The notes: generated by a model from the letters alone, not told the origin. A stretch of 64,000 nucleotides of DNA from Bilabrum cf. latius (GCA_965178125.1 OZ237767.1:558001-622000); one strand, 5' to 3'; shown: positions 34,156 through 57,749, numbered from the stretch's first letter. Made by a program: numbers and translations.

Positions 34156-34256
34156 ATTATAATGTAGCCCAATATTTTATTTTAATTTATTAAACCCGTT
34201 TTATAAAATTCTATAGTTTAAAAAAAATAAAAAAAATATCTAGTAATTATATATAA

Positions 34257-34628: not shown

Positions 34629-34668
34629 ATAATTAATTTATAAATATTAAAATCAATTAATATATATA

Positions 34669-35826: not shown

Positions 35827-35862
35827 ATATTATTAATTTATATTTTAATAATATTCAAATAA

Positions 35863-36480: not shown

Positions 36481-36525
36481 TATATATATCTATACAAAAC
36501 AAAATATTATTATCCTATAGACTAA

Positions 36526-38604: not shown

Positions 38605-38681
38605 TGTATATATATATTATTAATGATATAATTAATAATTTATAAACTTAAGAGATAATATGTCAATTGGTAGGCTGTCTT

Positions 38682-39062: not shown

Positions 39063-39119
39063 ATTATTGTATATATTGGGTATATATAATTTGTTATTTA
39101 TCCATACTTATAATATATA

Positions 39120-39935
39120 ATGAAAATTAATGAATTGACACAAGCTTATTTTAATGAATACGAGAACGATATATTTGATGAGGTGAATTTTAAGAAGGGG
39201 GCTAATTTATTTTTAAATGGTTCGTATGCTATTCCTTATTATTCCTTGTTTGCTAGTGATATAGATTTATATTAGAGGGTAGAGCCTGAATTTATAAATA
39301 GTTTAATAAGATTTGTAAAGGTTTTTATAAGTTAGGTTAATTTTATTGAGGTTAAAGCTGGTAATAAAAAATACAAGACCATAAAAGCATTCATATCTAC
39401 ACCCGTTAAAACCATTTATAAATAGATATTTAGCGGAGATAAACCATACTTAAAAATTGATTTTTGGGCTTTTGATGGAAAATTTATAGATGAAATAAGC
39501 ATAATTTATCATATAAGTGATTATGAAATAGATTAGGACGAGGTAAAAGATGGATTAATAAGAGATGTAGATAAATATTTTGGTTCTAATAATTTTAAAG
39601 TATTAAAACGATTGAAGGATTTATTTAAATTAAGAGGTGAGAAGAGGAATGAAAAAAGAGTCAATGATTTAATTGATAGGGAAGCATTAGGATATTTATA
39701 TTCCATAAGAATGCGATTAGAAAGTATGCTAAGAATAAAAGGACATCAAAGCGAGAAGTCAAAATCATTTCAAAGCCTAAAAGGACTAATGAGAAAAGCA
39801 TTAGGAAATGTGGAAATAATAAAACAATTTTCAAAGTATTCTAAAGCAAATATTAATAAGATAATATCGTGGATTGACCAATACATAAATAGGAAAACAC
39901 GGGCGGAAATTAAAAATATAATTATGTCTCTATAA
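39120..39935 (+). CDS. Nucleotidyltransferase-like virophage protein (~271 aa)
   Basis: LNGSYAIPYYSLFASDIDLY (GS...DxD, Pol-beta-like), IEVKAG, LKIDF. Resembles the Sputnik V21-type 'transferase'. Confidence 0.6.
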
Positions 39936-40027
39936 CTTTTTTTGTGAGGAAGGATAGAAGAAGGAACCAACTTAATATTTTAAACCCGTGTGAATAAATG
40001 GTTTATTTTATTTTATTATTATATATA

Positions 40028-41098
40028 ATGCTATCTTTACAATATACGGAAAATAGCCATATTGTAGCTATTCAAAAATACAAAAAAACACAATAGAACC
40101 GGTTTATTTATTACGACCCGAACGCTAAAGATATTCAACACGTCAAAGCGGAAGAGATAACAGATGATGTTTTAAAATCTTATTACGGAGAAAGCCGAGT
40201 AAGATATAACGTTGATAAGGACAAGAAAAGGGAACAATTACATAAACTATTACAAGATGAATATATACGGTCAGTTTAGGAATTTGCGATTAAAGATAAT
40301 AGTCAATATTTACCTTTTCCTATGCTCTTTCCATAGGGGCGTGAATATGTGCGATTATTTGGTAAGAGTGGAAGCGGGAAAAGTCATTTAGCTTTACATT
40401 ATATAAGGATGTATAGAGGATTAAAATATAAAAATATGTATGTTATATCACCAATTCAAGACCCTAAATATAAAAGAGAAGGCGCGACCTTCATTGATAT
40501 AGATGATTTGGTTAAAGAGAATGAAAACACTTTATATAAGGAAAAAATGGCTTATTATAAAAAAATGAAATTAGAATTTAAATATAAGAAATCTTCTTTG
40601 ATGAAATCTAAACCTTTAGATGTTGTTATTGAAGCTGAAAGAAAGATAGAGGATTTGAAACCTGAGAAAGATTTAATAGAAAAAGGTTTTAAATTAAATG
40701 TTGAGTTTTTTAAAAAATTGACCGCTGAACCTAATTTATTTATTCTGGATGATTACGAAGGCTTTAAAAAAAGGAACCAGAAAGCAAAGGCTTATTTTTT
40801 ATTGGAAATCCTAGCAACTACAGGAAGGCACACAGCAAGTAGCGTTTTAGACATCACCCACAAAATAAGCGACGGTATGAAGACACGAACCATTATGAAC
40901 GAAATTACAACCCATATCATTTATAAAACAATTACAGCTAAAAGTTTAAAATATATTTTAGAAACAGTCTTAAGTTTTGACGCTCCTACTAGAAAACGAA
41001 TTAAAAAAACCCTTCATTCTCTCCCTCTCTTTGGTTATGTTGCTATTAATGTTGATAATAATTATGTAGTTAGCACAAAAAAAATATTTCTCTATTGA
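40028..41098 (+). CDS. FtsK/HerA (A32-like) genome packaging ATPase (~356 aa)
   Basis: Walker A GKSGSGKS, Walker B LFILDD, TTGRH arginine finger. N-terminus restored through TAGs. Confidence 0.9.
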
Positions 41099-41106
41099 AT
41101 ATATAA

Positions 41107-41682
41107 ATGAACATAAACGACTTAAATAGACTAGTCCAAACACCGTTATCTCCTTTAGAAATTCAAAAATTAGGTGTAGCACATTTGAATTACAAACCTA
41201 GAATAGTTATTTACGATGATATTATTAAATAGACCTCATCTATTGAACATATTTTTGATGGTTATGACGGCGTAATTATTTATTATCCTAATAAAAAGAC
41301 GGGACTAAATAGCACATACGGTCATTATTGCGCTCTTACTTAGGACGAAAATAATAAAACTATTTATTTTTTTGATAGCTATGGAGAAAAACCCGACCAA
41401 TAGAAACCATTTATTAATAGAAACCAATTGTATCAAGGAGAAGGAGAAGAGAACACACTAGTTAAATATTTATTGACGTAGAAATTACACGGCTGGAAAA
41501 TTGACTATAATAATAAACCTATTTAGAGTTATGCTAATTAGAGTGCTACTTGTGGAAGATGGGCATTATTAAGAACTGTTTTCTCATTCTTAACTAATGA
41601 TTAGTTTGTAAATGAAATGTTTAGAATATCCAAAATTATGGCTCTTAGTCCTGATTAGTTAGTGGCGTTGCTTCTACATTGA
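41107..41682 (+). CDS. Adenain/Ulp1-like capsid maturation cysteine protease (191 aa; 8 in-frame TAGs; absent from the ORF track)
   Basis: YGHYCAL (His), YFFDSYG (Asp), I*SYAN*SATCGRW (oxyanion Gln encoded by TAG 41524-41526, catalytic Cys). Confidence 0.92.
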
Positions 41683-41689
41683 ATACCCC

Positions 41690-41885
41690 GCCCTTCTAAT
41701 AAAAGGGCTAGAATAAAATAATAAAATATGATTATCTCTAAAATAAAATCCATACGATGGCTATATCCACAAATTGCGTATATATTATAGTGTTTTCTAG
41801 CAAAACGTGGATGTAGGGCCTCTTGTGAAGGTGAAATGAAGATATAAGCCCTTTTATTTAGAAAAGTTCCATCGTTTTAGAAGGG
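41690..41885 (+). repeat. Internal copy of the TIR-related non-coding element (48-bp palindromic core at 41765-41812)
   Basis: tacgatggctatatccacaaattgcgta...tagcaaaacgtggatgtag..ctcttgtgaaggtg matches TIR 31113-31245. Confidence 0.85.
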
Positions 41886-42018
41886 CTATTTTTCATCCAT
41901 CTAAATTCAATCAAACTTTTAAATATATTGGTAAAAGTGAAGGGTAAAAATCAAGGTGAAATATTAGATAAGGTTTATTAATAAATATTTATTTGTATAG
42001 CTTTAATATATAAATAAA

Positions 42019-42972
42019 ATGAGTTATAGCGATGAATTTGTAAGATTGAATTTAGTTAGTTCATCTGTCCCCCACAATTAGACGAGATAGGCGGTAGTGA
42101 ATGAAACCCGTGAAGGCTTAATATTAAAACAAAGTGAAAATTATTTAACGGCTGTTGAAGAGATGGATTTAAATAAATTTATGCTACCGGTGTTTAAACC
42201 TGAATATTAGGATGACAGCGGTAAAACCTATTTAAAATTTACTCTTGAGAATAAAACATCAGGAGCCAGAGCAGGCGATTATATAGTTCTAGGTAAAAAA
42301 GCTAAATTTTATTATTCATATTAGGATATTGTAAATGAATTTAATGAAGAGTTAAGCCGAATTTGTGATTTGGTAAGCCTTCCAAGTGGTGATAAACCAT
42401 TCTTTAAATTTGAAAATAATAAATGGAGTTTATCAACAACTGAAGATTTTAGAGATAATTATTATTTATTTGTTAATTTTGAAGCTTTTGCTTTATTTGA
42501 TAAATTTGAATATGAAGGAATAACAACCACACCGAGTGATTTATTTGCTAAACTTTCATATAATAATTCCCCTGCTAGTGGTGATTATGTTTTTATGGCT
42601 AGATAGACGAATTTAAATTCTTGGTGCCCTGTTAAATCTATTATCGTAGAAAGTGATATTCCAGTGAATAAAGAATTGGTGACCACAAAATCATCTACTG
42701 GTGGCTCTATAGCCGTCAATAAATCCCCTATATTAACCAGCTACCCGTATAATCCTAATGACAGCTCACCAATAGAAAATATATTATATGTTTCTAATCC
42801 TTACCGCTGGTATTCAATGATGAAGGATAGAAGCTTTAAGAGCGTGTCAATGGCGTTCTACTGGGTTGATAAACAAAATGAAAAGTATCCCGTAATGAAT
42901 TTTAACGGGGGTGAAGCTCACATTAAACAAGTATTTAAAAAACAAACCGATAATTTAAGTTTAGATTTTTAA
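42019..42972 (+). CDS. Minor capsid protein (penton), ~317 aa
   Basis: NETREGLIL...NYLTAV...LPVFKP, SWCPVKSIIVESDIPV, YRWYSM, FYWVDK. Located directly upstream of the MCP. Confidence 0.85.
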
Positions 42973-43043
42973 ATAAATTATAGAAGATTATAAAATATGT
43001 TTAGATATTAAAAAATTTATATCTATAGTGTATATATAAAAAA

Positions 43044-44933
43044 ATGGCTCAACAAATGGTTCAGAATTTACCAGTAAGCATTAAGGCTCCTAAAAGCCTT
43101 CAAATGATAACCCCTGAAGATGCTAGTTTAGGAACAGAACTAGGTGTTCAAAAATATACCCGCCGAGAAATTAGACCATCATCTAATCAATCTAATTCTC
43201 TTCTTCCCCTTTCTTTCCCCGTTAATCCTACTAGTAAAACCGTATCAAGGTTTATTCGTCTTCGTCATCGTATGACAGTTAGGCTACAACTAGAGCAAGC
43301 AGTACCAGCTCAAACTGCGGGAGGTGATGCTATTACCGCTCAATCTTATCTTAAATCTAGGTTTGGAACTAATTCATTACCTACCTTTAAAATGCTTCAA
43401 GGTGGTGTTTTAACAATTAATGGATAGCCTTTTACAGTAAAAGTTTATGAATGGGCTGAACCTACTGAAGTTATGAACAGTGAAGAAACCTTATCCACAA
43501 TCTCACCCGTTGGACGCCCTGACACTGTTGGTGATTATCGTGAAGTAAGTGATACCCTTAAAAATCCTTTAGCTTGGGGTTAGGATGTTGGATATAGTGC
43601 CGGTGATAGCTTTAGTTATCGTGGAGCATATGGGAATGCTTTTACGACTGTAAGTGCTGATTTCGTTGCGGGTAATAGAGACCAAATTGATTGGACTATT
43701 GATTTTCAAGAAGCTATACCACTAAAAGGAGCAGATGTTGATGTGAATGCTAAATATTTCACCGGTGTGAGAAGCCTTCAGGTTGATTTAGATTATCACG
43801 TAAATGCCATTCAAAGACTGTGTAAGGCTAGTTTTACAAAAGATAACGGAGATATTAACAAAATAACGGGTTAGTCAATTATAGGAGAAACAAATACGAC
43901 CCTTCTTGTTGATGAAGTTGAATTTTAGAGTGGATACGCCCCCCCGACTCGTTGTATGTATAATATGCCTACAATTAAATTTTAGTCTTAGGCGCCTGTC
44001 CCTGTACCTAAATCCGCAACTGAAAATTCTTTAACTTCTTTTGATTATCAATTATCCCGTGAGAATGGTATCCCTAGTGCTATTATGGTATGTGCCCGCC
44101 TTGTTGGTTGTGATGATAACCCTAACTGGGCTAATAGAACTTTACCAATTAGAAGAATAGGTTTCTCACTCAATGGAAGCGCTGAGGAATTAGGGGCTGT
44201 AGATAATCCACACGAATTATATAGAATTAGTAGAAAGAACGGATATGCTCTTCCTCCTTCATCCTTTTATGGTTCATCAATTGATGGAAGTGATGGAAAC
44301 CGCGGTACTGGTTGTTATATGATTTTAAAACCTTCAGATGTTGCTACACTTGCTGGTGTTCAATCTAATGTAAATACTGGATTTAATCTTAAAGTTAATC
44401 TTCAGTGCTTCAACCCTTATAATAAATATGCGGATGGTGCGTATGAGGATAAATACGAGATAAAAGTATGGATGTTTTATGATAATGTTCTTGTGAATGA
44501 TAACGGTGTCTATACTGAGTCTGGCGCCCTTATTGAGCCTTCTAAAGTGCTTTCTGAACTTGCTAAACGTGGTGATGCTGAAAGTGGTTCTAAAGGTTTC
44601 TAGCCTGTATTTGAGGATTTAGATAATTATGCTAATGTTATGGGTGGAAAAGGTCGTTTCTGGTCTAAGATTGGACGAGCCTTTAAACACGGATGGAACA
44701 AGGTTAAAGATTGGGCAAAAAGTGATTAGGCTAAAAACCTAGCGAAAACCATTAGGAATATAGGACCACTCAAAAGTCTAACAGGAGACAATAGCGCTAT
44801 TGGCAAAGCGGCGGCACATTATGGATATGGAAATAGTGGAGGAGAATTAAATAAATTAGGAGGGAAACTTACGATGCGTGGAGGTGCGGCAATGAAAACA
44901 GACGATCTTGAGGCCCTTTTGAGTACGAGTTGA
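43044..44933 (+). CDS. Virophage-type major capsid protein (~629 aa) with di-glycine-cleavable C-terminal extension
   Basis: One frame through TAGs. VSRFIRL, IPSAIMVCAR, LPIRRI, ELYRISRKNG and GFNLKVNL match the virophage MCP pattern. Tail VMGG-KGRFWSKIGRAFK; TGA at 44933. Confidence 0.9.
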
Positions 44934-45026
44934 ATCAAAGTCAATTATTTATATAAACTACCGCCTTTAAGTGTTTGGAAAAAAGGCGGACTTAAATGTA
45001 TATTACCATAACTAATATACATAAAA

Positions 45027-45812
45027 ATGGCGGACTATTCAAAAGGATACATCTATAGAATTGATAGCGAACATTGTGAGCTTCCATATATTGGTTCATC
45101 AATTATGAATAAAGAAAAGAGGTTTAATATTCATAAGAAGGATTACAGATATTACAACGAGGGGCGAGAGAACTCTTTTTATATTTCTAGTTATGAAGTG
45201 GTTAAATATGATGACGCAAAAATTACAGTTATTGAGGATTTCCCTTGTGAAAATAAAAAACAATTAGAAGAGCGGGAGGGCTATTGGTAGAGGCAAATAG
45301 AATGTGTGAATATTAGAATAGCAGGAAGGAGCAAAAAGCAATACAGACAAGAGGAAAAGCAAAGGATAAAGGAAGCAAGACAGAAGCACTATCTAGAGAA
45401 CAAAGAGAAAATAATTCAAAAGTGTAAAGAGTATGTAGCAAATCATAAAGAGGAGACAGCAGAGAGAAAAAGAAAATGGGCTGAAGATAATAAGGAAAAA
45501 TTGAAAGATTATAGGAAAAAATACGCAAAAGACAACGCTGAAAAGATAAAAGCGTATAGAAAAGAGAGACGGGAGCATTATAATGAATTGTAGAGAGAAA
45601 GAAGGAGAAAATAGAGAGAGGCGGAAGGTAAAGAACCAATATAGAAGCTAACCCCTGAAGAGAAAAAAGCTAGAAAAAAAGCTTAGAACAATAGAGAGGT
45701 CATTTGTGAATTTTGTGGTGCTAAGTCTAACGTAGGACATATAAGAAGACATCAAAGAACGAAGAAATGTCAAGCGATACAACAGGAATTAAAGGACAAA
45801 GAAACAAGCTAA
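45027..45812 (+). CDS. GIY-YIG nuclease-family protein with coiled region and C-terminal zinc finger (~261 aa)
   Basis: KGYIYRI...PYIGSS..KRFNIH..EREGYW; C-terminal CEFCG...RHQRTKKC. Confidence 0.85.
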
Positions 45813-45899
45813 GCAATTCAATCAATTAAATAATCCTTTAAGCTATAGAACTGCGTTTAAAATGACTTAAATATATATTAACTAACTAATATATATCAA

Positions 45900-46190
45900 A
45901 TGGAAAAGTTAAATAAAATTATTGAGAATCTACCGCCTACACACGATGTCTATATCCAGACAGAAATTGATGGAGTTTTGACCGTAATTTTTACAAACAG
46001 TGATTAGGTAAAAGAAATCACCAAGCAATTAAAAAAAGACAGTAGAGAGAAGCTATTATATCTCAAATATTCAACCTATAAATGTATTATATAGACGAGG
46101 AATAAGTATAGAGATGATGACATTGTACTTCATTATTTGGCTGTTTGTCTGTTAGAAAAGAAACCCATTCAATTATATAAGGCAAGATAA
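45900..46190 (+). CDS. Hypothetical virophage protein (96 aa)
   Basis: ATG 29 nt after the promoter motif; open through two TAGs to TAA. Confidence 0.65.
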
Positions 46191-46331
46191 TCATTTTATT
46201 AATTAATATTATGAAATTATTAATTATTATAATCATCTATATCAATAGTGTCTATTTTTTAAGCCCCTTTTTTATAATAAAACGCGTTTAAAATGACTTA
46301 AAGATTATATTATATAGATATTATATAGAGA

Positions 46332-46883
46332 ATGTGTAAAAAGTGTATTGAACAAATATAGGAACATACCGGTAATATAAAATGGATGGACATTTAGAAG
46401 AAATTAATTCATATTGGCTCAACCGTTATTCAAGGTGATAAATTGGGTAATTGTATTTGTGGGCACGAGATACGAACCGAGCACGAAATAGAGCATACCC
46501 CTAGTGGATATGTTTTTAAAGTGGGTTCTAGTTGTATAAAGTAGATGATAAAGGATAAAGAAAATCAAATTCGTAAAAAATGTTTATATTAGTGGTGTGG
46601 AATATGTAAAAAAGATGTCGCAAGAGACCGATATAATAAGCACTGTGAAGGAATAAGACATATTGAGTTAGAAAAGAAATAGAAAAAGTTAGAGGAAAAA
46701 AAGAGGAATGAAAAAAGATGTGATGTGTGTCTTTGTAAAATGCTTAGAGGTGATTGGAGGACAACCTGTAAGTCTTGTTATACGATTACAAAATATGGAA
46801 AAAAGGCGTGTAAAAAATGCGGAGTGTCTAGAATTAAAGATATGAAATATTCAATTTGTTATAAATGTCATATTGGTAAATAA
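46332..46883 (+). CDS. Multi-zinc-finger protein (183 aa)
   Basis: CICGHEI...VGSSCI, CGIC..HCEGIRH and several further CxxC pairs. Open through TAGs. Confidence 0.75.
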
Positions 46884-46949
46884 TAATTAGATATTAATGA
46901 TAAAATTAATATTTAACATATTGATGATGGGAGTTAGAAGGGGCTATAT

Positions 46950-47145
46950 TACAACCTTCTAAAGTGATGGAACTTTTGGGCTAGAAATACGTTATCAATC
47001 AAATCATCTTCATAAAACTAATCCATCCACGTTTTGCTAAATAATACATATACTAATACGCAATTTGTGGATATAGCCATCGTATGGATTTTAATATAGA
47101 GATAACCATATATATTTTAATATTCTAGCCCTTTTATTAGATGGT
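46950..47145 (-). repeat. Internal inverted copy of the TIR-related element (core 47025-47072)
   Basis: atccacgttttgctaaataatacatatactaatacgcaatttgtggat is identical to the right-TIR core 57480-57527. Confidence 0.85.
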
Positions 47146-47205
47146 CAAGGTGTTCAACTATTAATAAAGATATCATATTTAATATTAGTATAAATATTAA
47201 ATTAT

Positions 47206-47751
47206 TTAGAAATCTTTTAATGCCTCGTTTAGTTGCTCTCTAAAGGCTTCTTCATCATCATCTTCATCATCTGGTTTCTCAACATTTCTATTATTATCAC
47301 GTTTTTGTTTCTTCTTATTCCTCTTCTTAGTCTTTTTCTTGGGTCTTCTTGGTTCTTCTTCTTCTTCTGGTTCCTCTACTTCCTCGGGTATAAATTGACC
47401 GTATGACAAATTAATATATTTGATGGGTTTGTCCTTCTTTTTAATTGTCATTATGGGGTCTTTACTCTCAAAATTTCCTGTATAATAAATCGGGGGCTCA
47501 CTAGAAAACATATAAATGTATGGAACAAATGGATTTTTGGCACTGTCGGTTTTCATATCAGGGGTTAGATACAAACCATTTAATTCGTCTTCATCCACTA
47601 GTTCAAATTTATCTTCTACGGTATTATTAAAAAATATCCCTTTAAAAGTCTTAAAGAAGAATTGATTAATATATTTCTTGGCTTTCTTTACGGCTCCTTC
47701 TTCTAAAAGTTCCATTAATTCGCTTGGTTCATAACTCTAAAATTTTGACAT
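47206..47751 (-). CDS. Hypothetical protein (181 aa), possibly the N-terminal remnant of a D5/SF3 helicase
   Basis: ATG at 47751 lies 29 nt from the promoter motif. AKKYINQFFF..GIFF..YINL; no P-loop before TAA. Confidence 0.55.
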
Positions 47752-47843
47752 TCTATATATATTATAATAAAATAAAATCTTTAAGTCATTTTAAACGCGT
47801 CTATTTGGCTTAAAAATAAAATATCTATAGTATATATATAAAA

Positions 47844-48188
47844 ATGGTTAAATTACGTGATATTCAAATTGTTAGAACTCAACTTATTAAAAACAATAAG
47901 CCCGTATATAATTTCGTGTTCCCTCCTCGTCCAGATGATAATGGATTTAATGATTTAGAAATGAAGACTTTATTAAAAAAATATATCTAGAGGTTATTAA
48001 AACAAAAGCCCCATTTAAAGAATTATGATGCGTATGTTAGCTCTCTCTACCCCATAGGCTGGCGAACTGGTTCACCATTTAAATTAAAGGATGATGTAAT
48101 GTTATTCAGTCCTTCTTCTCGCTATACCTTCTTAAGTGATGAGCAAGTGAAGAGATTTATATTAATCCTCACTGCTCCGAAACAATAA
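47844..48188 (+). CDS. Hypothetical protein (114 aa) immediately upstream of pPolB
   Basis: ATG to TAA through one TAG; GWRTGSPF motif. Confidence 0.65.
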
Positions 48189-48266
48189 TTACATTTTATA
48201 ATTTAAACTTTATAATATGTGTTTAAAATGGCTTAAAAATATATTAAATATAATATACTATAGGAA

Positions 48267-49766
48267 ATGATAAATTACGAAAATGTGTTAAATCAATTAA
48301 ATATATGCTTTGGTAAAAAGTATGATAACCCCATTCAATCCGTAAAGTATCTAGAAAAGGTATTTAACGGTAAGCCCATAACTACAAAGAACCTTTATAA
48401 ACTTGTTTCAGGTCTAAAAATGGATATAGAGATTAGAGAGAAAGACGATATAAAGGTCTATTATCTAAGTAGGAAAAAAGAGAGTTTTAAAAGGGTTTGT
48501 TTAGAATATAAAGATGGTTCATTTAAAGCCGTCTAGAGGATGAAACCTTTATTTGTGCGGTGCCATAAATCTATGGTTGTTAAATTAACCGATAAAGCCG
48601 AAATAATTGAAAAAGATAAATATAGAGTTGAGAGCCTGACCGATTATCATTCAAAGAAATATTATCTTCATTACACCATTCACGAATGCCCAGAGGATGA
48701 AGATATCAAAGAATGGAGCTTAAGGCTGAGTATAGCAAGTGATGAATTACACGACGAGAACCCATCATTAGATGTAATGAAATATGGAATCAGACAAACA
48801 GCCCTTCATTTCTTTACAATGTTTAATATGATGATAGATAGCCCACCAGATATAACCCCAGAGGAAGCGGTATTTATTGAAGGTTCAACGCGTGGCGGGA
48901 TTCAATATCACAAGAAGGGACAATATGAGGAGTTTATCACCTACGATATAAATAGTCATTACCCCGCCATTATGTCATCTAATTCACTACTACCATATGG
49001 AAATCCTATTTATAAAACAATTGATAATAAATATATAAATAATAAAAACGAAATAGGGATTTATAAATGTAAGGTAAGCCGTGGAAAATGCGACCCGAAT
49101 ATCTTTCAAATGATGAAGGTATTTGAAAATGAATTTACTTATTATGTCTTTACAGATATGAATATGTTTGTTAAATATGGTTGTGAGATAGAGATGTCAA
49201 GCGACGAATTTAATTTTATGACCTATGATAAATATATCAAAAGTGAAACACTTTTTAAATCCTATGTCTCAATGTTCTACAAATTAAAAAGCAAATCATA
49301 TCTAGCAAAAGAAATATTAAATTCATTATGGGGTAAATTATGTAGTTCCTCTAAAAAGACAATTACATCAAAAGACGATAAAAAAATAAATATAGATAAA
49401 TTTGATATTGACCGTGTAGAAATGGATAATGACGGAGAATTTATTTATCATTTGAAACATAAAGTACCCTTTAAATATAGCTGGGGAAAATTGAAACCTT
49501 TTATTCTGGCATATGGAAGACAACGATTGATGAAGAAAGTGAATAAGAACAACGCTAAACATATTATACGAATTCACACCGACAGTATCACATTTAACAA
49601 AAGATTAAATTTTAAAGTAGGTAAAGAATTAGGTGAATATAAAAAAGAATAGATAAATGAAGAAGGATAGAAATTAATTATCCACGGATAGAATGATTTA
49701 ATGGTCGTAAATGAAAAAGAAGAAATTATATCAAGGAAAGGAAAAAAAGGCGGTTTAATGCTTTGA
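48267..49766 (+). CDS. Protein-primed family B DNA polymerase, compact (~499 aa)
   Basis: TRGG, motif A YDINSHYP, motif B KEILNSLWGKL, ILAYGR, motif C IHTDSI, ELGEYK. Confidence 0.9.
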
Positions 49767-49793
49767 ATTAAATATTTATTAATTATATAATAT

Positions 49794-49952
49794 ATGATTA
49801 ATATTATTAGTAATATCTTTGTTTAGTATGCTATTAAGAAGGCATTAAAGAAGGTAAAAAATAAATTAATGAAGAATCCAAATAATAAAAGACTCTATGA
49901 AGAATATAGAAAAAAAACGGCTCACGCAATTAAAAAATTATCATTTTATTAA
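49794..49952 (+). CDS. Small basic protein (52 aa)
   Basis: Fills the gap between genes; TATATA leader; one TAG. Confidence 0.4.
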
Positions 49953-49960
49953 TTATATAG

Positions 49961-50668
49961 ATGAATGATAATATACCTAATTATGTTAATAGTCCTAAAT
50001 TATGGCGTCAGGCAGTTGAGAAAGTAAATAGAACGTATAAAAAGCCTTCAGCTTATCGTTCATTAGCATATTTTGCTCGTTATAAAAAACTAGGGGGGAC
50101 ATATGATAAAATTAAATTAAATGAAGCATAGAAAAATTTACGACGATGGAAATTAGAGGATTGGAAGAATTAGAAGGGAGAAAAGGGATATTAGGAAAAA
50201 GGAGATATATATAGACCCACTAAAAGAATAAATAAAGAGACCCCTTTAACCTTTGGAGAATTAGACACGGAAGAAATAGAGGAAGCAATGAAGGAAAAAT
50301 TTAATAACGGACACGTGAAATCATTTAGACCTAAACCAGTTTTTAATTTATATAAATCAACTAAATCAAATAAAAAATATATGATTAAAGTAGTTCAAGG
50401 TAATAATATTCTGTTTACTGTTCATTTTGGTGGAATTAAGAATGATGGTACCCCTTATATGGACTTTATACAATATTATAATAAAGATGGAGAGAAGGAA
50501 GCAAACCGTAAAAAGAAAAATTATATTAAAAGACATTCAATAAATGAAGACTTTAAAGACTATAAATCCCCCGCTTTTTGGTCTAGGTTTGTATTATGGA
50601 ATGAACCAACATTAAAAGATAGCTTTATGGACGCCGTAGATAGAGCTAAAAAATTAATGAAAGTTTAA
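49961..50668 (+). CDS. Fusion of two small giant-virus/virophage domains (DUF5872-like + DUF5754-like), ~235 aa
   Basis: PSAYRS..YKKLGGTY..LRRWKLEDWKN*KG..IYRPTKRINKETPLTFGEL, then STKSNKKYM..VHFG..YIKRH..SPAFWSRFVLW. Family names are from memory. Confidence 0.65.
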
Positions 50669-50721
50669 TATTATAGGTTTGATATAAGTTTTAGTTTTTC
50701 TCTTATTTATATATACAAAAA

Positions 50722-51243
50722 ATGAGCTTAGCAAGATTATCGCAACCTAATGATATATCTATTCAATGTAAGAATGTCGCAACTGGTAGATTAGATAGTA
50801 GTGGTCTATATGTAAATGCTGTTGTGAATAGTAGTGATGTAGTTGTTAGCAACGCAGGATTACATCTTGACAGTAAGGGTATTTCTTACATCACTTCGGG
50901 TCAAGCTTTACGATTCGGTGCCAATACCGCATCTGCTGGTTTAGTTATGAGTTTTGATGAAGACGGTCACGAATGTGATTTAACCGTAAAAGGTGAAGTA
51001 GTAGCAAATAACACCGTAGCGCATAAAGGAAGGGTAAATTGGAGTGGTGGAGGTGCTACTGAATTCGCTAGTGTTCCGGGTATGACTTCTAGTGATTTGG
51101 TTTTTATTACTACAATCACCCCCGCCAGTGAGCCGGTTGAATTTTCCCACGTAGTAGCAGGAACCGATGGATTTACGATTCATTTAACGGGTGGTAATTC
51201 CTCTAATGATTGGTCGGCTAATTGGATGGTTATTAAAGGTTGA
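50722..51243 (+). CDS. Beta-rich putative fibre/spike structural protein (173 aa)
   Basis: G/S/T/V-rich ORF; C-terminal domain ..TDGFTIHL..NWMVIKG resembles fibre-tip domains. Confidence 0.5.
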   Translation: MSLARLSQPNDISIQCKNVATGRLDSSGLYVNAVVNSSDVVVSNAGLHLDSKGISYITSGQALRFGANTASAGLVMSFDEDGHECDLTVKGEVVANNTVAHKGRVNWSGGGATEFASVPGMTSSDLVFITTITPASEPVEFSHVVAGTDGFTIHLTGGNSSNDWSANWMVIKG

Positions 51244-51285
51244 AAAATCTTTTTATTTATAAAAAAAATAAATAAATAGATAAAT

Positions 51286-51588
51286 TTAAATTGATATCTC
51301 CGGTGGTTTAATCCCGCTATTAAGCAGGGTTTGATTAAGTTTCTTGATATATTCCTCTAGTATATCCTTTTTTGGTTCTTTGAGATTTTTTTGGTGTTTC
51401 TTCGTTCGTTCGTGTCTCGTTCTGTCCTTCCTTCTATAATAACAATCACACACATCGCATTTAACTTTTTCATTTCCTCTAGCTAAATATTTTTTATTCC
51501 ATTTGTCTTTGTTTGTTTTGTAATATTCCTACATATAATTAATTTTTGGTTGCTCCTCTGTATTGCTTGAACTCTAAATATCGCTCAT
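51286..51588 (-). CDS. C2H2-type zinc-finger protein (100 aa)
   Basis: KVKCDVCDCYY..RTRHERTKKH; promoter motif 28 nt upstream. Confidence 0.75.
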
Positions 51589-51646
51589 CACTATATATTA
51601 TATAAATATATAATGTTTAAGTTATTTTAAACACATAAAAAAGGTA

Positions 51647-54424
51647 TTAAATATTCTGATCTAATCGTTCGTTGGATTCCTTGTATATGTCCTTCATTTC
51701 GGGATACTAATATTTATAAACTTCATCAAATAATTCTTTCTCCTTGGTGAATTTAATTCTTAATTCTCTATCCTTTTTATCCTTTTTATTCCCCATACTC
51801 CAGGAGGTTTTAATATTTCCAAATAACTACTTATATAATTTTACTATTGCCCCGTGTAATTCACTATCGGTTTCTATTGGCTTCTATAATCTCGCCCCGC
51901 TTACTTCTACATATCTTTTACCCATTTCTATATATTTAATGGATTTCTCATTTTTACGTGTATAACTTAAATCAAATTTATTCAATTTAAGCGTCTATAA
52001 CATCTCCTACAATATGATTATTTTATTCTTTGTACTTTTTGCTTTCTCATCCTTAAAATCCTTTCTATCCTTTAATTCTGTCATTAGTTTATATTTATCT
52101 TTTCTCTTAAAATTAGCATAATTAAAATAATTCATTAATTTGTAATTATCAATTAATAACATTTTAATATCCTCCGTTATGGCTGTCTCTGGTAGCCCTA
52201 AAATTTCAATTCTTCTTTTTATATGGTCGTTCTCTACATCAAATGAATCAATCTATTCTTGTAGTACCTCCATTGTCGCCTCTTTCATCTGCTATTTATT
52301 CATTCGTTGTGGTAATTCCTTATCCACCTATACATCGGCACCCCTGTTTTTAAGAATAAGCTATAAATGAATATATTTATTTGTTTCGTATGTATCACAT
52401 TTGAAATTATATAATTTCTTGAGTGGTAAATAAACCTTATATGATGCCTCTATCATTGCTTTATGGGCTATCTCTTCATCATCTTCTCCCTCAAAAATAT
52501 CAATGTCAATATCATTCTCCTACATTATCCTTTTTTCGTATTTTTCTAATTTAGTATATAAATCTGTCTATGCGTTAATTTCCATATTTAAGGTCGTCTA
52601 TACCTCCTTTAAATTCTCATATCTTGGATAAATGGATTTTACATCTTCAAAATATATATTCATATATTCGGGATTTCTACATCTTGCCAGTTGCTACATC
52701 ATCTACGGCGGTAGAATCGTTTTTCCTTTATATAATCCATACACTGGGCGCTCCATTACACTATCTAATCCGTAAATGACTTTAGGACTAAATATAATTT
52801 TATCATATTTATCTAAGCTCACATCCTCATCAGGTAATAAATCACTAGTAATTAATTTAACGTCCTCTATACCATCTTTACATAACATTTTATAAAATGT
52901 ATCTGCGTTCTTCTTGCTATCACACGCCAGTATAAATTTATCTTCACTTTTTAATTTATCGTAAAATTTCTATTGGTCTTTTTCAAAATATACTTTTACG
53001 TCCTTAAAATGCTTATATTTATTCTTAATGAAGCTAAATTCTACTCCAGCACATTTTAAAAATTTCATCGCTATCTGGGATATGTCAGCATCTACAGCAA
53101 TAAACTATTTACACGTCCTTATCATTTTTAAAATAATAAATAATACAAGAACCCTATTATTATTCATCGTGGTAGAACTTAATATATGCTCTATAATGCT
53201 ATTGAATTCATCCAAAAATACGATGTATTTAGAAAAATCATAATTCACAATTTGGGGGATACTTTCCGGCGTAATAATAAGAGACTATCCAAAATCAAAA
53301 GTTTTATTCTGGTAGAACTCACATTTAATATCTTCATTTAAAAAGCTCTCGTATTGCTCTGTGCCTAAACATACACGGGATACAATGGATAAGAACGGCG
53401 TTTGAACCTGTTTAATGTATTTCTTAAATGCTGTTGTTTTACCTGTTCCTGTATCACTTTTTACCACATAATTATATTCATATTTAAAAAATCGTTCGGG
53501 CTTCTCTATATCATCTAATTTAGGTTTATTAATTTCTGTATACCCGTTAATATTCTCGTCATAAGGACGATAATAACACTTTGAAATATACTTATCTTTC
53601 ACAAATGCCTTTAAACTTTTATCATTCTAAATTATTGAATTAACTAAATTAAAGGTTTTTAACTTATCAAAATAATGGATAGAGTTCCACACCTTGTTAT
53701 TTTTGTGGTAGTCGTATTTATTGCCCTTCTTGCTCCACTCCTACCACTCCTTCTTAAATCCTAAATATTTACTCGCTAGGGTTGCTTTATACCAATCACT
53801 ATAATTATTTAAATATTTCTTATCTAGTCTATTTAATATAATTGACCAGTCTTTACCATTTAAAATGAATTTCATCATACAGTTATTCACATCTTGATTA
53901 TCAATTTTTGATATCCTTTTACTCGCCCCTTTTACGTTGGATTTCTTAGAGGATTTAATAATATACTTTTCATAAAATTTATAAAGCTCCTTAGGACATT
54001 TTTTTATTTCTACATTATTAATAACTTCGTATTTTGACCCATTTATGCCACTTGGTGGTGCCACTACATAAGCCCCATCATTCCTAATATCAACGTCAAT
54101 ATCTCTATTGGTGGTAGTTAATATATTCTAATCATATTTAAAATATAGATGATACCCTCCACCCGCTGTTTTAACCGTGAATGTGTTGAACCGCTTCACA
54201 AAGTCATCTGAAAATTTCTTGATGAATAAATGCTCCTTCTTATCGCTCCATTTATATGAATCAATATCAAACACGGTTATATTATTAATTTCTCCGGTGA
54301 TAATAGCCATATTCTGATTATTAAATCGTTTAGGCTCGGGTTTGGTGAGATATCGCCAGCTTTTAACATCAGGTATTTTTTGATTGTGCTTGATGGGGAA
54401 ACTAACGAGGTTTTTATTATTCAT
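51647..54424 (-). CDS. Prim-Pol (AEP) + PriCT-2 + UL9-like superfamily-2 helicase fusion (~925 aa)
   Basis: NMAIITG..VFDID, TAGGGYHLYF, DIRNDGAYVVAPPS; YSDWYK..W*EWSK; KSDTGTGKTT, SIVSR, FLDEFNS, VDAD, FSPKVIYGLD, MM*QLARCRN. Track fragments share one frame. Confidence 0.88.
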
Positions 54425-54579
54425 TTTCTATATATATTATTAGAAATATATTTTTAAACTATTTTAAACGCCATATTTAATTATAGAGGGCTTAAAGGGG
54501 CTATAATAATTAATGAAGGTAAAAGGTGATTTTTGCCATTTAGCCCTAAAAAATAGATTGTGATATGAATGGTGTATTT

Positions 54580-54775
54580 TAACACCTTCTAAAGTGATGG
54601 AACTATTTTTAAAAATTATCTAAAGGTCCCATACCACCTTCACAAGAGGCCCTACATCCACGTTTTGCTAGAAATACTATATAATTATACGCAATTTGTG
54701 GATATAGCCATCGTATAGATTTTAATATAGCGGTTATATTAAAATATTTTATTAAATTCTAGCCCGTTTATTAAG
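54580..54775 (-). repeat. Internal inverted copy of the TIR-related element (core 54656-54703)
   Basis: accttcacaagaggccctacatccacgttttgcta...tacgcaatttgtggatatagccatcgta. Confidence 0.85.
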
Positions 54776-54787
54776 TTGTAGGGGCTT

Positions 54788-55558
54788 TTAATTATAGATA
54801 TCTTGTAGTTTTTCGTGTTCGGCCTTCACATCAAGGGTCAAATATACCCGGCTATTCCAAAACTCAGGGCTGTTGATATCATCGCTATTATTAATATTAT
54901 AATTCCTTTTTATTTTTGATATCATAATTTGTAATTTACGAGGGCTAAACTATTTCTTAAGAGCCTCTACATCGGGTAAATTAATTTCACCAAAAAATAC
55001 ATCATTTCCATTTACGGACACTTTATACCTATAGTCTCCGTCTTCTAGCCTTTCTAGGTCTCCTATTATTTGTTTCTCTTCCTCAGGTATCATTTCATCA
55101 TCACTTTCTGCTTCTATCTAGTCTTGTTCGGTACTAACGCTGTTTATTTCACTTTCACTGTCAGGCTCCATACCGGTAAATTTTTCATCTATTGCGGTCT
55201 ATCTAATTAATTCTGGCGGTTGTAAATCATCTACATCATTATAAATTTTATTATTCTGTGGTTTATAGTCATTAAATTTATCTAGAATGTATGTTTGGTT
55301 AATTTCAAGCTGGTCGTTATTATCGTGTTGTATCTTCTGTTTCTCTTCTTTCTTGGGTTTTTTGACGGCTTTTTTCTCTTTAATATCACTAACTATATTT
55401 TTATTAATTAATTTAGACGTGGAAAACCTTCCACCTAAATCTACATACGTAGTAATGGTCTCTAAAATTTTTTGCGTACTATCTGTAATATGGTCTGTAG
55501 CCTTATAAATCTGCTTCATTAGGACGGGATTTTCAATGACATAATTATTAAAGTTCAT
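54788..55558 (-). CDS. Acidic hypothetical virophage protein (~256 aa)
   Basis: Track ORF extended through TAGs to TAA at 54788. Confidence 0.65.
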
Positions 55559-55870
55559 ATCTATAATACTAAGTTATAATTTTTGAGTTTTAAAAAAACG
55601 CTTAGAGGTGGGGGGGTTATGTGGGGGTTATCCCTAGCCTTTAGGCTAGGGTTATGGGTCTGGCTTCAATTATTCAATCCAATTCTCCTTCCTTTGCGGT
55701 TCCATCCGTCAGTTTATACCCTCCTGCCCTACATTTTCATCACTTCCTCGTGCTGGAACTTCTCACTGCTACCACTGGAATCGGCTATCGTCTACCACCT
55801 TCTCATCTTCATCTTCGGAACCTGTGCTACGCCAAAATTTATCTGGACCACACATAAAACACATAAAACA

Positions 55871-56338
55871 ATGGCCGGGGTTTCTACAGATGTTAATGAT
55901 GAAGTAATGAAGGCGCTTATTGCTGGTATTGAAGACATTGGAGCAGTGGGCGAGGAGTGGGACAGGGTTCTTCAATCTTTTGACGGCGAGACTGCCACGG
56001 TGAAGCTAGGCGAGGAAATCCAGACCTATGAGATTATCACCGAAGAAGAAGCAGACAAACGTTTGGACGACCACGCTACAGAGACGCTTGCTTCCTTCGT
56101 TCCTGCGTTCCTCTCGCGCTTCCTGCCTTGCGATGCCGATATCATAAGCACCGCTACCGCTGACGCGAACCACAGCGAGGCTTTAAGCGCCCTTCTTAAG
56201 TCATTTATAGTGGCTTAGGGGCGCTGGGACGACCTCATTCAGGCCTGTAAAGATGAGGACGGGCTGGGACATTTTCTAAACAGCTACGACGGGAGCACGA
56301 GCGAGCAAAATGGATACGTGGTGATGCGTGTGGATTGA
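55871..56338 (+). CDS. Hypothetical protein (155 aa) in the higher-GC terminal cassette
   Basis: ATG at 55871, one TAG (56216), C-terminal EDGLGHFLNSYDG..YVVMRVD, TGA. Confidence 0.7.
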
Positions 56339-56521
56339 TTGGATTGACTGAGACCACAAATGAAACATTGAAATGCTCTTCAATGCGGGATTCCACCCGT
56401 GTCAATGCTGGAAGCACGGTTCGTACCCTGCTACACACGACAGCGTGGCCACTCCAATATAGCCGTGTCCCTACCAATAACAAACACGACAATTTATAAT
56501 AAAAAAGGTTGTTCAACCTTC

Positions 56522-57215
56522 TCACTTCTCCATCTTGGGCTAAGAACCCGCCGTCCGGGGATAGTCCTGGATGAGATTCTCATTGCCGCGAAACCGCTTG
56601 GCTGGTGCGGCGATGCCAGATTCCAGAAGAAGCTACTTGTTGAAGTCTTGGCGGCGCTTCCTCTTCTGGTTCTTCTCCAAAACATCACCAACGAGCGATG
56701 GGATGTCATATGCTGGAAGAAATGGCTTGAGGATAGCCATTTTCTGTGCCAAGAACGCCTGTGTCTGCCTCGTCTCCGCGTAATCTCTGCCGTGATGTAG
56801 AATCTTCAGCACGCCATTAATCCGGTCAAAGTCAGCATCGGTATCGTCAAGACTCCCCTTGGGGAATATTGAAGCGATAACAGCGAGTAGAGCCTTTGAG
56901 TTGACGCCTGTCGGTTCCAATGCTCCGACCGCCTCCCGAATTGCCTTCTCCAGCGACTTCCCGGTTTGCTCAACGAGGTGCATGTCCCCTAGTAGCCTTG
57001 AATGCGCTTTCAAAAGCTTCTTGGGGTTCTTCTCGGTTTGTACGGTGTCCTGGAAGGTGAGTAGCGCTTCCGTTCCCGTTTTCTTGCGTTGGTCGGGCTT
57101 GAAGAGCTGCGTTGGCGAGCAAAACCGGTGCGATAGATACAGATACGGTCAGCAAAGCAATTTCCATATGTTGATTATCTATCCTGTGGATTCTTACCTC
57201 AATCTTGCGGTCCAT
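56522..57215 (-). CDS. Intron-containing hypothetical gene (exons 57198-57215 and 56522-57106, ~200 aa)
   Basis: ATG GAC CGC AAG ATT GAG|GTAAGA...GCTGAC...ACGCAG|CTC TTC AAG. A 91-nt phase-0 intron joins the ATG to an upstream-open frame. Confidence 0.65.
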
Positions 57216-57328
57216 ATCTATTGTTTTAGGCTGGTGAAGTGATCAGCTGGCCTACAGCGTCATCGTTCCGGGGTGTATTGAACTGTGGCGCTTGTGGTAT
57301 TGCGATGACGAGTGTAGCAAGTTGCTGT

Positions 57329-57749
57329 AGCGCGTTTGTTCCATTTGTGAAGGTATAAGCGAGGATAAGGGGGTATAATGAAGGTAGTTTAGAAGGTTGA
57401 ATAATGGAGTCCCATAAAGTGATGGAACTTTTGGCTAGAAAATGGCTAGAGTCCCATAACACCTTCACAAGAGGGCTACATCCACGTTTTGCTAAATAAT
57501 ACATATACTAATACGCAATTTGTGGATATGGTCATCGTATAGAGTTTTATATATAATTGATTTTCTATAATTAGAAGGATAAAGCAGTTATATGAAGTAG
57601 CAGTATGAAGAGGCTCACCTTGACTTTTGGAGCGACTAGCGACAAAAGGAATGGAGAGAGGGAAGAGCTTTAGCTCTGACTGAACGTAATTATTGAAACT
57701 TGTTTCCTTAACCGAAGGGAATAAATTTATTTATTACCGTAGCGGGGGG
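57329..57749 (-). repeat. Right terminal inverted repeat (~421 bp)
   Basis: Reverse complement of 30902-31326. Confidence 0.95.

What the first reader, a model, noticed from the sequence alone, without database searches (positions are those of the whole stretch)
55580..57328. Higher-GC cassette inside the right TIR with an apparent spliceosomal intron
Seen: ~1.75 kb that is visibly more GC-rich than the rest of the virus, with two convergent genes lacking the viral promoter motif. The minus-strand gene has an 18-nt first exon and a 91-nt GTAAGA...GCTGAC...ACGCAG intron (57107-57197) whose splice sites resemble the host introns here. It also has basic NLS-like tracts (KRKRR, PAKRFR) and uses TAG. 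Known: virophage genes are transcribed in cytoplasmic giant-virus factories with no spliceosome. Inference: this module is expressed only from the nuclear provirus by host Pol II, making it a candidate latency, maintenance or sensing function, or captured cargo.
Basis: partly seen in the sequence, partly recalled or inferred. Interest (0 to 1): 0.75.

Follow-up and report, generated by a model that had tools for sequence, protein, structure and literature searches.

The report
Spliced two-gene cassette in integrated virophage
An integrated virophage carries, next to its right end, a two-gene module with its own start motif and a true spliceosomal intron that assembled sequences from two public runs show removed, so this part of the virus seems to be read by the host nucleus and not by a giant virus.

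Summary
A 26.8-kb virophage-like element (30902-57749; TIRs, 5-bp duplication) sits in a host satellite. Between its last AT-rich gene and the right TIR lies a ~1.7-kb stretch of GC 0.43-0.52, against about 0.29 for the element. It holds two convergent genes. Gene B (minus strand) has an 18-nt first coding exon and a 91-nt GT..AG intron (57107-57197). Contigs of two public runs, whose RNA nature is a guess and not on record, join 57106 to 57198 exactly. Two DNA-like runs run through the intron unspliced. Neither gene has the element's promoter motif: 8 sites, all in the AT-rich part, 0.07 expected. Both genes share the 9-mer TAAAACAAT just 5' of the ATG, where the spliced-run contigs begin. 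Host and virophage both read TAG as sense, probably Gln, and the cassette genes hold three in-frame TAGs. Gene A belongs to a widespread family of small phage proteins of unknown function. Gene B is a basic, helical orphan. Best reading: a host-transcribed, host-spliced provirus-phase module. Its function is unknown and "only from the provirus" is not shown. Virophage papers I read state that such elements lack introns and are silent when uninfected, so this is a new variant of a known kind.

The parts
30902..57749 (.). Integrated virophage-like element (context of the cassette)
   Evidence: GC drops from about 0.6 to about 0.3; TIRs. Long ORFs appear only if TAG is sense. Pfam: rve integrase plus chromo, Prim-Pol/PriCT_2, weak MCP_V20_C; Sputnik V18/19 minor capsid E 5.4e-7. 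CAGCC is duplicated at 30897-30901 and 57750-57754.
57329..57749 (.). Right terminal inverted repeat (partner 30902-31326)
   Evidence: arms 30959-31326 / 57329-57696, 368 nt, 99%; arms 30902-30946 / 57705-57749, 45 nt, 100%.
55600..57328 (.). Mid-GC cassette. Left edge is approximate (55600-55636); the right edge abuts the TIR.
   Evidence: GC 0.43-0.52. The X1 DNA-like contig 55606-57366 stands as its own 1761-nt contig. No terminal repeats or TSD of its own.
55864..55872 (+). TAAAACAAT motif 5' of gene A; it overlaps the first two bases of the ATG. The X7 contig of gene A begins at 55864.
   Evidence: exact match; record 17 (55864-56354).
55871..56341 (+). Gene A: 155 aa, acidic (pI 4.07), one in-frame TAG at 56216-56218, stop TGA
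   Evidence: Homologue P0001 is 68% identical without gaps and has Q at the TAG position. 203 remote relatives. phrog_15770. pI.
56522..57106 (-). Gene B exon 2 (194 codons plus stop TGA at 56522-56524); in-frame TAGs at 56633-56635 and 56540-56542
   Evidence: Contigs X7 56560-57106 and X8 56428-57108.
57107..57197 (-). 91-nt spliceosomal intron of gene B: GTAAGA at the 5' end, GCTGAC about 42 nt before the 3' end, ACGCAG at the 3' end
   Evidence: Sequence. Joint 57106->57198 'skips 91, CT..AC' in X7 and the matching loose end in X8; unspliced in X1 and X5.
57198..57215 (-). Gene B exon 1, coding part (ATG plus 5 codons, MDRKIE)
   Evidence: the X7 contig continues to 57227.
57220..57228 (-). 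TAAAACAAT motif 5' of gene B; the X7 contig of gene B ends at 57227
   Evidence: exact match; record 18.

Best explanation
The cassette is an accessory, provirus-phase expression module of the virophage. It is two convergent genes with their own short-leader start motif (TAAAACAAT). They are transcribed in the host nucleus, most likely by RNA polymerase II, and gene B is spliced by the host spliceosome. The rest of the element carries a different, AT-rich promoter grammar of the kind virophages use with a giant virus's transcription machinery.

The products are a small acidic protein of a phage-borne family (A) and a basic, all-helical protein with NLS-like tracts that probably enters the nucleus (B). 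They would therefore be made while the virophage is integrated.

Shown: the anatomy, the distinct composition and motifs, the use of the TAG-sense code, and precise removal of the intron in assembled sequences of two runs.

Inferred: that those runs are RNA, that Pol II is the polymerase, that the module is not also used during giant-virus infection, and that it serves the provirus (maintenance, priming or anti-silencing) and is not merely a passenger.
For: (1) Joint 57106->57198 in X7 (1 contig, depth 39.7, 30 letters beyond the joint) and the same junction as a 17-letter loose end in X8. There are 0 such joints in X1 and X5, whose contigs run through the intron (4 of 4 runs laid).

(2) In X7 and X8 the two genes stand as separate gene-sized contigs (491, 577 and 698 nt) with no mismatch. 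Depths are unequal (7.6 against 39.7), and the ends differ between the two runs. In X1 and X5 the cassette is one contig. This is the shape expected of transcripts.

(3) Both X7 contigs begin at the shared 9-mer TAAAACAAT (55864; 57227).

(4) The viral motif has 9 matches at 8 sites, all within 31351-54469, against 0.07 expected, and none in the cassette. GTTTAAA occurs in 8 of 24 and TATATA in 18 of 24 virophage upstream regions, and in 0 of 2 cassette genes.

(5) Only splicing links the ATG to the 41 codons of exon 2 that precede the first internal Met.

(6) GC3 of 0.57/0.64 lies between virus and host.

(7) There are three in-frame TAGs, and host ORFs tolerate TAG but not TAA or TGA: 10/0/0, 4/0/0, 6/0/0 and 9/0/0.

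(8) Gene A is conserved: 68% identity, no gaps, to P0001. The family model has pLDDT 88.9.

(9) From established knowledge and from passages read in PMC10945749: virophages use the giant virus's late transcription machinery.
Against: No run is on record as RNA. The tool's guess for X7 is 'RNA? (probably DNA)', and X7 holds a 51.5-kb contig. If X7 and X8 are DNA, the joined form is an intron-less DNA copy and expression is not shown.

Both spliced runs come from one study.

Contig ends cannot fix transcript starts.

The TAAAACAAT motif was not found upstream of the host ORF starts I looked at, so it is not shown to be a host promoter element.

Gene A's relatives are phage proteins, so the cassette is not simply host-like.

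Some giant viruses pass through the nucleus, so an intron does not by itself exclude use during infection (recalled).

No function could be assigned to either protein.
Confidence: 0.55

Rival explanations
1. Passenger DNA: the stretch was picked up by recombination from the host or from another virus and happens to be transcribed. It has no role for the virophage.
For: Composition unlike the rest of the element. Position at the very edge, next to the TIR. Contig depth about 0.3-0.5 of the neighbouring virophage contigs in X5 (177.9 against 448-564) and X1 (2.8 against 5.6-6.2), so probably not in every copy. Gene B has no relatives.
Against: Both reading frames are intact in a code with in-frame TAG. 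Gene A has a 68% identical, gap-free homologue. The cassette is held with few differences in runs labelled as three organisms from three studies: 2 other letters in 1761 nt in X1, 14 in about 1830 nt in X5, and 0 in X7 and X8. Both genes share one start motif.
Confidence: 0.2
2. The cassette belongs to the infection programme after all. TAAAACAAT is a promoter or initiator of another temporal class of a helper giant virus that has a nuclear phase, so that splicing is available during infection.
For: Very short leaders (7 and 12 nt or more) and a shared motif at the start resemble viral gene starts. The motif was not seen at host ORF starts. Gene A is of viral type.
Against: In one search the runs with the spliced form have contigs on the cassette and TIR only. 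The composition differs from all 24 other genes.
Confidence: 0.13
3. An independent mobile element, or a fragment of one, inserted into the virophage, as MULE transposons do in Halocafeteria virophages.
For: A GC island inside a virophage is how such insertions were recognised (passages of 10.64898/2026.07.28.741278). Depth is lower than that of the core.
Against: No terminal inverted or direct repeats and no TSD at the edges. No transposase or integrase domain: Pfam, NCBIfam and PHROGs gave nothing of that kind.
Confidence: 0.05
4. The joined contigs are DNA: a retro-copied or ancestrally intron-less gene B in another strain. The intron would still be real, but expression of the provirus copy would not be shown.
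For: The tool's own guess for X7 is 'probably DNA' and no library type is on record.
Against: The two genes, 180 nt apart, lie on separate contigs with five-fold different depth and with different ends in the two runs. In the DNA-like runs they lie on one contig.
Confidence: 0.12

Closest known systems
Endogenous mavirus-like elements (EMALEs) of Cafeteria burkhardae and other integrated virophages
   Same: Low-GC element in a high-GC host, TIRs, short TSD, rve integrase, virophage capsid genes, and conserved promoter motifs upstream of the genes (PMC8547959 passages).
   Different: PMC8547959 states that none of the EMALE genes contains introns (passage). PMC10945749 states that EMALEs are transcriptionally silent in uninfected cultures (passage). 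PMC10120064 treats endogenous viruses as intron-free (passage). Here one gene has a spliced intron, the module has its own start motif, and the element reads TAG as sense.
Punuivirus, the latent giant endogenous virus of Chlamydomonas (bioRxiv 10.64898/2026.10.09.758095; abstract and outline read)
   Same: Chimeric architecture: 'latency genes' enriched in spliceosomal introns that mirror host regulation, while virulence genes are under a conserved viral promoter.
   Different: That is a giant virus of hundreds of kb with many such genes. Here it is a 27-kb virophage with one two-gene cassette at one end, and no epigenetic or single-cell data.
phrog_15770-like small phage proteins (gene A family)
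   Same: Length 130-170 aa and the shared C-terminal DG.GHF...YD motif (A2). phmmer gave 203 hits at E<=1e-3. 7 of 10 proteins scanned match phrog_15770 (the three without a match include P0001 itself). BFVD fold matches are 4 uncharacterised viral proteins, the two named ones being an uncultured Caudovirales phage and an uncultured marine virus, at E 7.9e-10 to 8.9e-5.
   Different: Known members lie in tailed phages of bacteria, in arrays of small unnamed genes near genome ends. This copy sits in a eukaryotic virophage, uses a TAG-sense nuclear code and is paired with an intron-bearing gene. No member has a known function.
Endogenous viral elements of Streblomastix strix that use the host's TAA/TAG=Gln code (PMC10120064 passage)
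   Same: An integrated virus that shares the variant code of its host.
   Different: Here only TAG is reassigned. 18 of the 24 virophage genes end in TAA and 6 in TGA.

Membership tests
U2-type spliceosomal (GT-AG) intron | GT at the 5' end and AG at the 3' end on the coding strand | tested here: met
   Minus strand of 57107-57197 starts GTAAGA and ends ACGCAG. The joint's ends are reported as CT..AC on the + strand.
U2-type spliceosomal (GT-AG) intron | Precise removal in the mature transcript | tested here: met
   X7 contig joins 57106 to 57198; X8 contig has the matching 17-letter loose end; X1 and X5 are unspliced. Caveat: the RNA nature of X7 and X8 is a guess. If they are DNA, the precise loss still marks the segment as an intron.
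U2-type spliceosomal (GT-AG) intron | Branch-point-like sequence upstream of the acceptor | tested here: inconclusive
   GCTGAC lies about 42 nt before the AG. Its use as a branch point cannot be tested here. Host introns for comparison are only predicted.
U2-type spliceosomal (GT-AG) intron | Splicing restores a continuous reading frame | tested here: met
   91 nt is not a multiple of 3. The unspliced reading runs 81 aa in another frame. The spliced ATG exon joins the 194-codon open frame.
Virophage (integrated, mavirus-like) | Virophage-type capsid proteins | tested here: met
   PF21507 Sputnik V18/19 minor capsid, E 5.4e-7, 29.2 bits against a cut-off of 27. PF22031 MCP_V20_C is only weak: E 0.0035, 17.2 bits against 27.
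Virophage (integrated, mavirus-like) | rve-family integrase, TIRs and a target-site duplication | tested here: met
   PF00665 E 5.8e-11; TIRs; CAGCC on both sides.
Virophage (integrated, mavirus-like) | Packaging ATPase and maturation protease | tested here: inconclusive
   39998-41098 gives only weak P-loop hits below the cut-offs. 41107-41682 gives no Pfam hit. My labels for these two rest on gene order alone.
Virophage (integrated, mavirus-like) | Dependence on a giant virus for replication | not testable with these tools
   No infection data. Only a conserved promoter-like motif at 8 sites.
phrog_15770-like phage protein family (gene A) | Significant profile or sequence match over most of the length | tested here: inconclusive
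   The window's protein against phrog_15770: E 0.0027 over residues 101-145 only. Its 68% homologue P0001 has 203 phmmer hits at E<=1e-3 but matches no PHROG itself at E<=0.001; 7 of the 10 proteins scanned there match phrog_15770. Membership is by chain of similarity.
phrog_15770-like phage protein family (gene A) | Conserved motif residues (E60, F76, D130, G131, G133, H134, F135, Y139, D140 of P0001) | tested here: met
   All are among the columns invariant between P0001 and the window's protein, and they are invariant or nearly invariant in the 79-sequence alignment.
Transposon insertion (MULE or other TIR element) | Own terminal repeats, TSD and transposase | tested here: not met
   Searches show no terminal repeats or TSD at the edges. 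Searches show no transposase domain.

The most novel reading that the evidence does not exclude
Virophages can carry a dedicated lysogeny-phase programme. This is an exchangeable cassette at the TIR-proximal end whose genes are written in host grammar (own initiator motif, spliceosomal intron, intermediate GC). They are expressed from the silent provirus to keep it inducible or to prime the cell against the giant virus. Other copies would hold divergent alleles of the same cassette: the 68% homologue on a 1680-nt contig, and a second contig in X8 that joins other sequence at 57303 and starts with a similar ATG-GAC exon.
Probability: 0.3. Interest if true: 0.85.

Novelty: new variant of a known kind. 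Interest (0 to 1): 0.72.

Why it matters
Integrated virophages are discussed as an inducible defence of protists against giant viruses. How the provirus is kept intact, unsilenced and ready is unknown.

The virophage papers I read treat these elements as intron-free and silent until a giant virus arrives. A module that the host nucleus transcribes and splices gives a concrete handle on the latent phase: two small proteins to delete, tag or express.

It parallels the split between intron-rich latency genes and viral-promoter virulence genes just reported for a latent giant virus. That suggests a general way in which integrating DNA viruses of protists divide their genomes between two transcription systems.

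It also warns that prokaryote-style gene calling on such elements misses spliced genes, and here also every gene with an in-frame TAG.

Tried and rejected
- No RNA holder listed: the look-up of sequencing runs lists no run on record as RNA. X7 and X8 are guesses.
- X7 and X8 have no contigs on 40000-55365.
- I first read the X5 loose end before 57329 as a cassette-less sibling. It is the reverse complement of the left arm's continuation (31327 onward), so I rejected that reading.
- The idea that the cassette's left end is a degenerate copy of the TIR's internal repeat: short inverted matches, but blastn with word 7 found nothing significant. Rejected.
- A 28-nt match of 56493-56520 to 51236-51263 as a shared terminator hairpin: the folds are not better than shuffles (z -0.4 to -1.6). 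Rejected.
- Gene B: no Pfam or NCBIfam hit, and only a weak PHROG (E 0.03) and PDB (E 0.17) hit. No homologue among 171 candidates in the word-indexed search. The single-sequence model has pLDDT 51.4, too poor for a fold search, so none was run.
- Gene A family: no Pfam hit above threshold in 20 proteins scanned. No PADLOC hit in 4. No PDB sequence match. No PDB fold match at E<=0.001.
- No relatives of gene A in IMG/VR or JGI metagenomes. No relatives of the capsid protein in IMG/VR or in the word-indexed protein search.
- No whole genome is held, so copy number and other insertion sites could not be counted.
- No suppressor tRNA in the window. No Rfam family in 54500-57800.
- Host introns could only be predicted, so 'resembles host introns' is untested.
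- Supplements of the papers were not opened. Element tables there could hold intron or expression data that I did not see.
- Searches for a virophage with introns or with a TAG code listed no paper that describes one. I judged this from listings and from the passages cited.

Full report
**Context**

The window is GC-rich host DNA (0.6-0.75) interrupted at 30902-57749 by an element that is AT-rich (mostly 0.25-0.36) up to about 55500. The element has terminal inverted repeats: 30902-31326 and 57329-57749, with one arm pair of 368 nt at 99% and one of 45 nt at 100%. It is flanked by a duplicated CAGCC (30897-30901 and 57750-57754). It lies inside a 121-bp satellite array (28539-30901 and 57841-60778).

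Under the standard code its longest frame is 371 codons. With TAG read as sense, frames of 929, 696 and 659 codons appear. Pfam then finds:
- an rve integrase with a chromodomain-like end, a Prim-Pol/PriCT_2 helicase protein, and a weak V20 major-capsid match;
- a Sputnik V18/19 minor capsid protein and DUF285-repeat proteins.

It is therefore an integrated virophage-like element. My labels 'ATPase' and 'protease' for 39998-41098 and 41107-41682 are not supported by Pfam beyond weak P-loop hits.

**The genetic code**

In the 24 virophage genes I counted 103 TAG, 20 CAG and 186 CAA codons. All 24 end in TAA (18) or TGA (6). Four long host frames hold 10, 4, 6 and 9 TAGs but no TAA or TGA, while the other five frames of the same stretches hold many of each. 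One of these host frames carries a DUF389 domain.

So host and virus both read TAG as sense. The amino acid is probably Gln. The single TAG of cassette gene A aligns with Q in its homologue, and TAG seems to stand in for CAG in the AT-rich genes. This rests on one aligned position plus codon counts.

**The observation**

The stretch from about 55600 to 57328 has GC 0.43-0.52 and GC3 0.57/0.64. Virophage genes have GC3 0.17-0.33, and three of four host frames have 0.74-0.82. The stretch abuts the inner edge of the right TIR and is not part of the repeat; the left arm continues directly into the promoter of the first DUF285 gene.

Gene A (55871-56341, +) encodes 155 aa with one in-frame TAG.

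Gene B (-) starts at 57215 and has 18 coding nt. It then has a 91-nt segment beginning GTAAGA, with GCTGAC about 42 nt before its end, and ending ACGCAG. A 194-codon open frame with two in-frame TAGs follows, ending in TGA at 56522-56524. KRKRR and PAKRFR are there.

Without splicing the ATG runs into another frame. The exon-2 frame has a stop and no ATG upstream of the acceptor.

**Splicing**

Ten runs were listed for 52000-57700, none on record as RNA. I laid four of them on 40000-57700.

- In X1 and X5, which hold about 0.9 of the words, the cassette is one contig that includes the intron (55606-57366 and 55627-57457).
- In X7, one 577-nt contig (depth 39.7, no mismatch) covers 56560-57106 and continues at 57198-57227. 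The tool reports the joint as 'skips 91, CT..AC'.
- In X8, a 698-nt contig covers 56428-57108 and ends in 17 loose letters. These are identical to 57200-57216 (my comparison), which is the same junction given the two-letter ambiguity.
- X7 also has a 491-nt contig, 55864-56354, without mismatch. That is gene A with 7 nt before the ATG and 13 nt after the stop.

Several features have the shape of transcripts and not of genomic contigs:
- the two genes lie on separate contigs;
- the depths are unequal (7.6 and 39.7);
- the ends differ between X7 and X8;
- both X7 contigs start at the same 9-mer.

The library type is nevertheless a guess, and the tool leans to DNA for X7. Both runs are from one study. 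Even if they were DNA, a precise 91-nt absence bounded by GT..AG would mark the segment as a spliceosomal intron. What would then be lost is the evidence for expression.

**Promoters**

Upstream of the virophage genes two motifs recur (70 nt upstream of 24 genes):
- GTTTAAA(A/T)N(A/G)N(C/T)TTAAA, about 45 nt before the ATG;
- a TATATA-rich stretch next to the ATG.

GTTTAAA occurs in 8 of 24 upstream regions and TATATA in 18 of 24. The full motif has 9 matches at 8 sites in the window, all between 31351 and 54469, against 0.07 expected. Neither cassette gene has either motif.

Instead both have an exact TAAAACAAT immediately 5' of the ATG, at 55864-55872 (+) and 57220-57228 (-). Other exact copies lie only in the AT-rich virophage part, where such words are common. 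None was seen before the host ORF starts that I printed. I therefore cannot say whether it is a host or a viral start signal.

**The proteins**

Gene A:
- It has one close homologue in 5.8 billion clustered proteins: P0001, 68% identical over all 155 residues without a gap, on a 1680-nt contig.
- P0001 finds 203 proteins at E<=1e-3 among 1.84 billion representatives, mostly 130-170 aa.
- Of 10 proteins scanned (P0001 and nine top hits), 7 match phrog_15770, of unknown function. The window's own protein matches it weakly (E 0.0027).
- The family shares a C-terminal DG.GHF...YD motif.
- A model built with 79 sequences is confident (pLDDT 88.9). It has no PDB fold match at E<=0.001. It has four BFVD matches (E 7.9e-10 to 8.9e-5), all uncharacterised viral proteins; the two that carry a name are an uncultured Caudovirales phage and an uncultured marine virus.
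- In named phages (9 records) the gene lies among small unnamed genes; in the two loci I opened these sit near a genome end.
- The atlas look-alikes of P0001 are phage clusters at 0.90, which is weak.
- A is acidic (pI 4.07).

Gene B:
- It is basic (pI 9.67) and predicted all-helical at low confidence.
- It has no relative and no family.

**What it is**

The best reading is an accessory module of the virophage that is read in the nucleus. It has its own start motif, needs the spliceosome, and is made in cells from which the spliced contigs came. The other 24 genes carry promoter motifs of the kind that tie virophages to a giant virus's transcription machinery (passage in PMC10945749). I put 0.55 on this.

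Its function is not known. A nuclear basic protein plus a small acidic protein of a phage family suggests regulation or interference, not structure. That is inference only.

The rivals are:
- a transcribed passenger (0.2);
- a second viral temporal class used by a nucleus-visiting helper virus (0.13);
- an intron-less DNA copy behind the joined contigs (0.12; this overlaps with the others, because it concerns the evidence and not the nature of the cassette);
- a transposon insertion (0.05), for which no terminal repeats, TSD or transposase were found.

**Distribution**

The cassette is held, nearly identical, in runs labelled as three organisms from three studies. Its contig depth is 0.3-0.5 of the neighbouring virophage contigs in X5 and X1, so probably not every copy has it. 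Contig depth is a rough measure.

Two hints point to alternative fillings of the same slot:
- the 68% homologue of A on a contig of about cassette size;
- an X8 contig (713 nt, depth 25.8) that shares 57303-57334 and then continues in unlike sequence whose minus strand begins with ATG GAC, as gene B does.

Neither hint could be followed up.

**Comparison with what is known**

- For Cafeteria EMALEs the authors state that no gene contains introns (PMC8547959, passage).
- The authors of PMC10945749 state that the elements are silent in uninfected cultures (passage).
- A survey of protist genomes used prokaryotic gene callers because endogenous viruses 'do not contain introns'. It noted one case of elements sharing a host's TAA/TAG code (PMC10120064, passages).
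- A 2026 preprint reports, for a latent giant virus of Chlamydomonas, latency genes enriched in spliceosomal introns beside viral-promoter virulence genes (abstract). This is the closest concept.
- My searches listed no paper that describes an intron-bearing or TAG-recoded virophage. This is judged from listings and the passages named, and supplements were closed.

**Verdict**

The feature is real, the intron is genuine, and the host-mode expression is likely but rests on runs of unrecorded type. It is a new variant of a known kind. Interest 0.72.

Noticed in passing
window 1-64000 (host ORFs 5512-10185, 11358-15008, 15146-23794, 23911-27750; virophage 30902-57749): TAG is a sense codon, probably Gln, in both host and virophage. 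Host coding frames hold 4-10 TAGs and no TAA or TGA. The 24 virophage genes hold 103 TAG against 20 CAG, and they end in TAA or TGA. My searches listed no paper on a virophage with a TAG-only reassignment.
   Followed up: partly
window 28539-30901 and 57841-60778; junctions 30897-30901 / 57750-57754: The virophage is inserted in a 121-bp satellite array with a 5-bp duplication, CAGCC. Its integrase ends in a chromodomain-like stretch (Pfam Chromo E 1.8e-4, below the cut-off), which would fit targeting to repeat chromatin.
   Followed up: partly
window 31070-31290, 41660-41860, 46920-47170, 54610-54790, 57365-57585: A repeated element of about 150 nt with a highly conserved core occurs five times: once in each TIR and three times between genes. 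It contains an internal inverted repeat (ATCCAC...GTGGAT). X7 contigs also lie on the TIR copy. No Rfam match in the part searched.
   Followed up: partly
window 31351-54469 (8 sites): Promoter-like motif GTTTAAAWNRNYTTAAA about 45 nt upstream of one class of virophage genes: 9 matches against 0.07 expected. A second class of genes has TATATA-rich sequence next to the ATG.
   Followed up: yes
run X8, contig joining at window 57303: A 713-nt contig (depth 25.8) shares only 57303-57334 with the window and then continues in unlike sequence. The minus strand of that sequence starts with ATG GAC, like gene B. It may be an alternative cargo gene next to the same TIR-proximal sequence.
   Followed up: no
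window 10064-10136 (minus strand): The host ORF 5512-10185 may have a very short first coding exon (ATG plus 10 nt) followed by a GTAAGT intron of 64-73 nt. This is the same layout as cassette gene B. It is predicted only.
   Followed up: no
window 31396-32415 and 32505-33302: Two tandem paralogous genes at the left end encode DUF285 (BspA-like) repeats, Pfam E 1.1e-86 for the one scanned (31396-32415); both have nearly identical promoters and C-termini.
   Followed up: partly
window 60765-60837: A tRNA-Cys(GCA) gene lies at the outer edge of the satellite array.
   Followed up: no
window 7258-9806: A host ORF holds a long 156/300-nt tandem repeat that encodes a Pro/Ala/Ser/Gly-rich protein repeat.
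   Followed up: no
window 49961-50668: A virophage gene matches DUF5872 (E 8e-21) and, weakly, DUF5754 and DUF5900.
   Followed up: no
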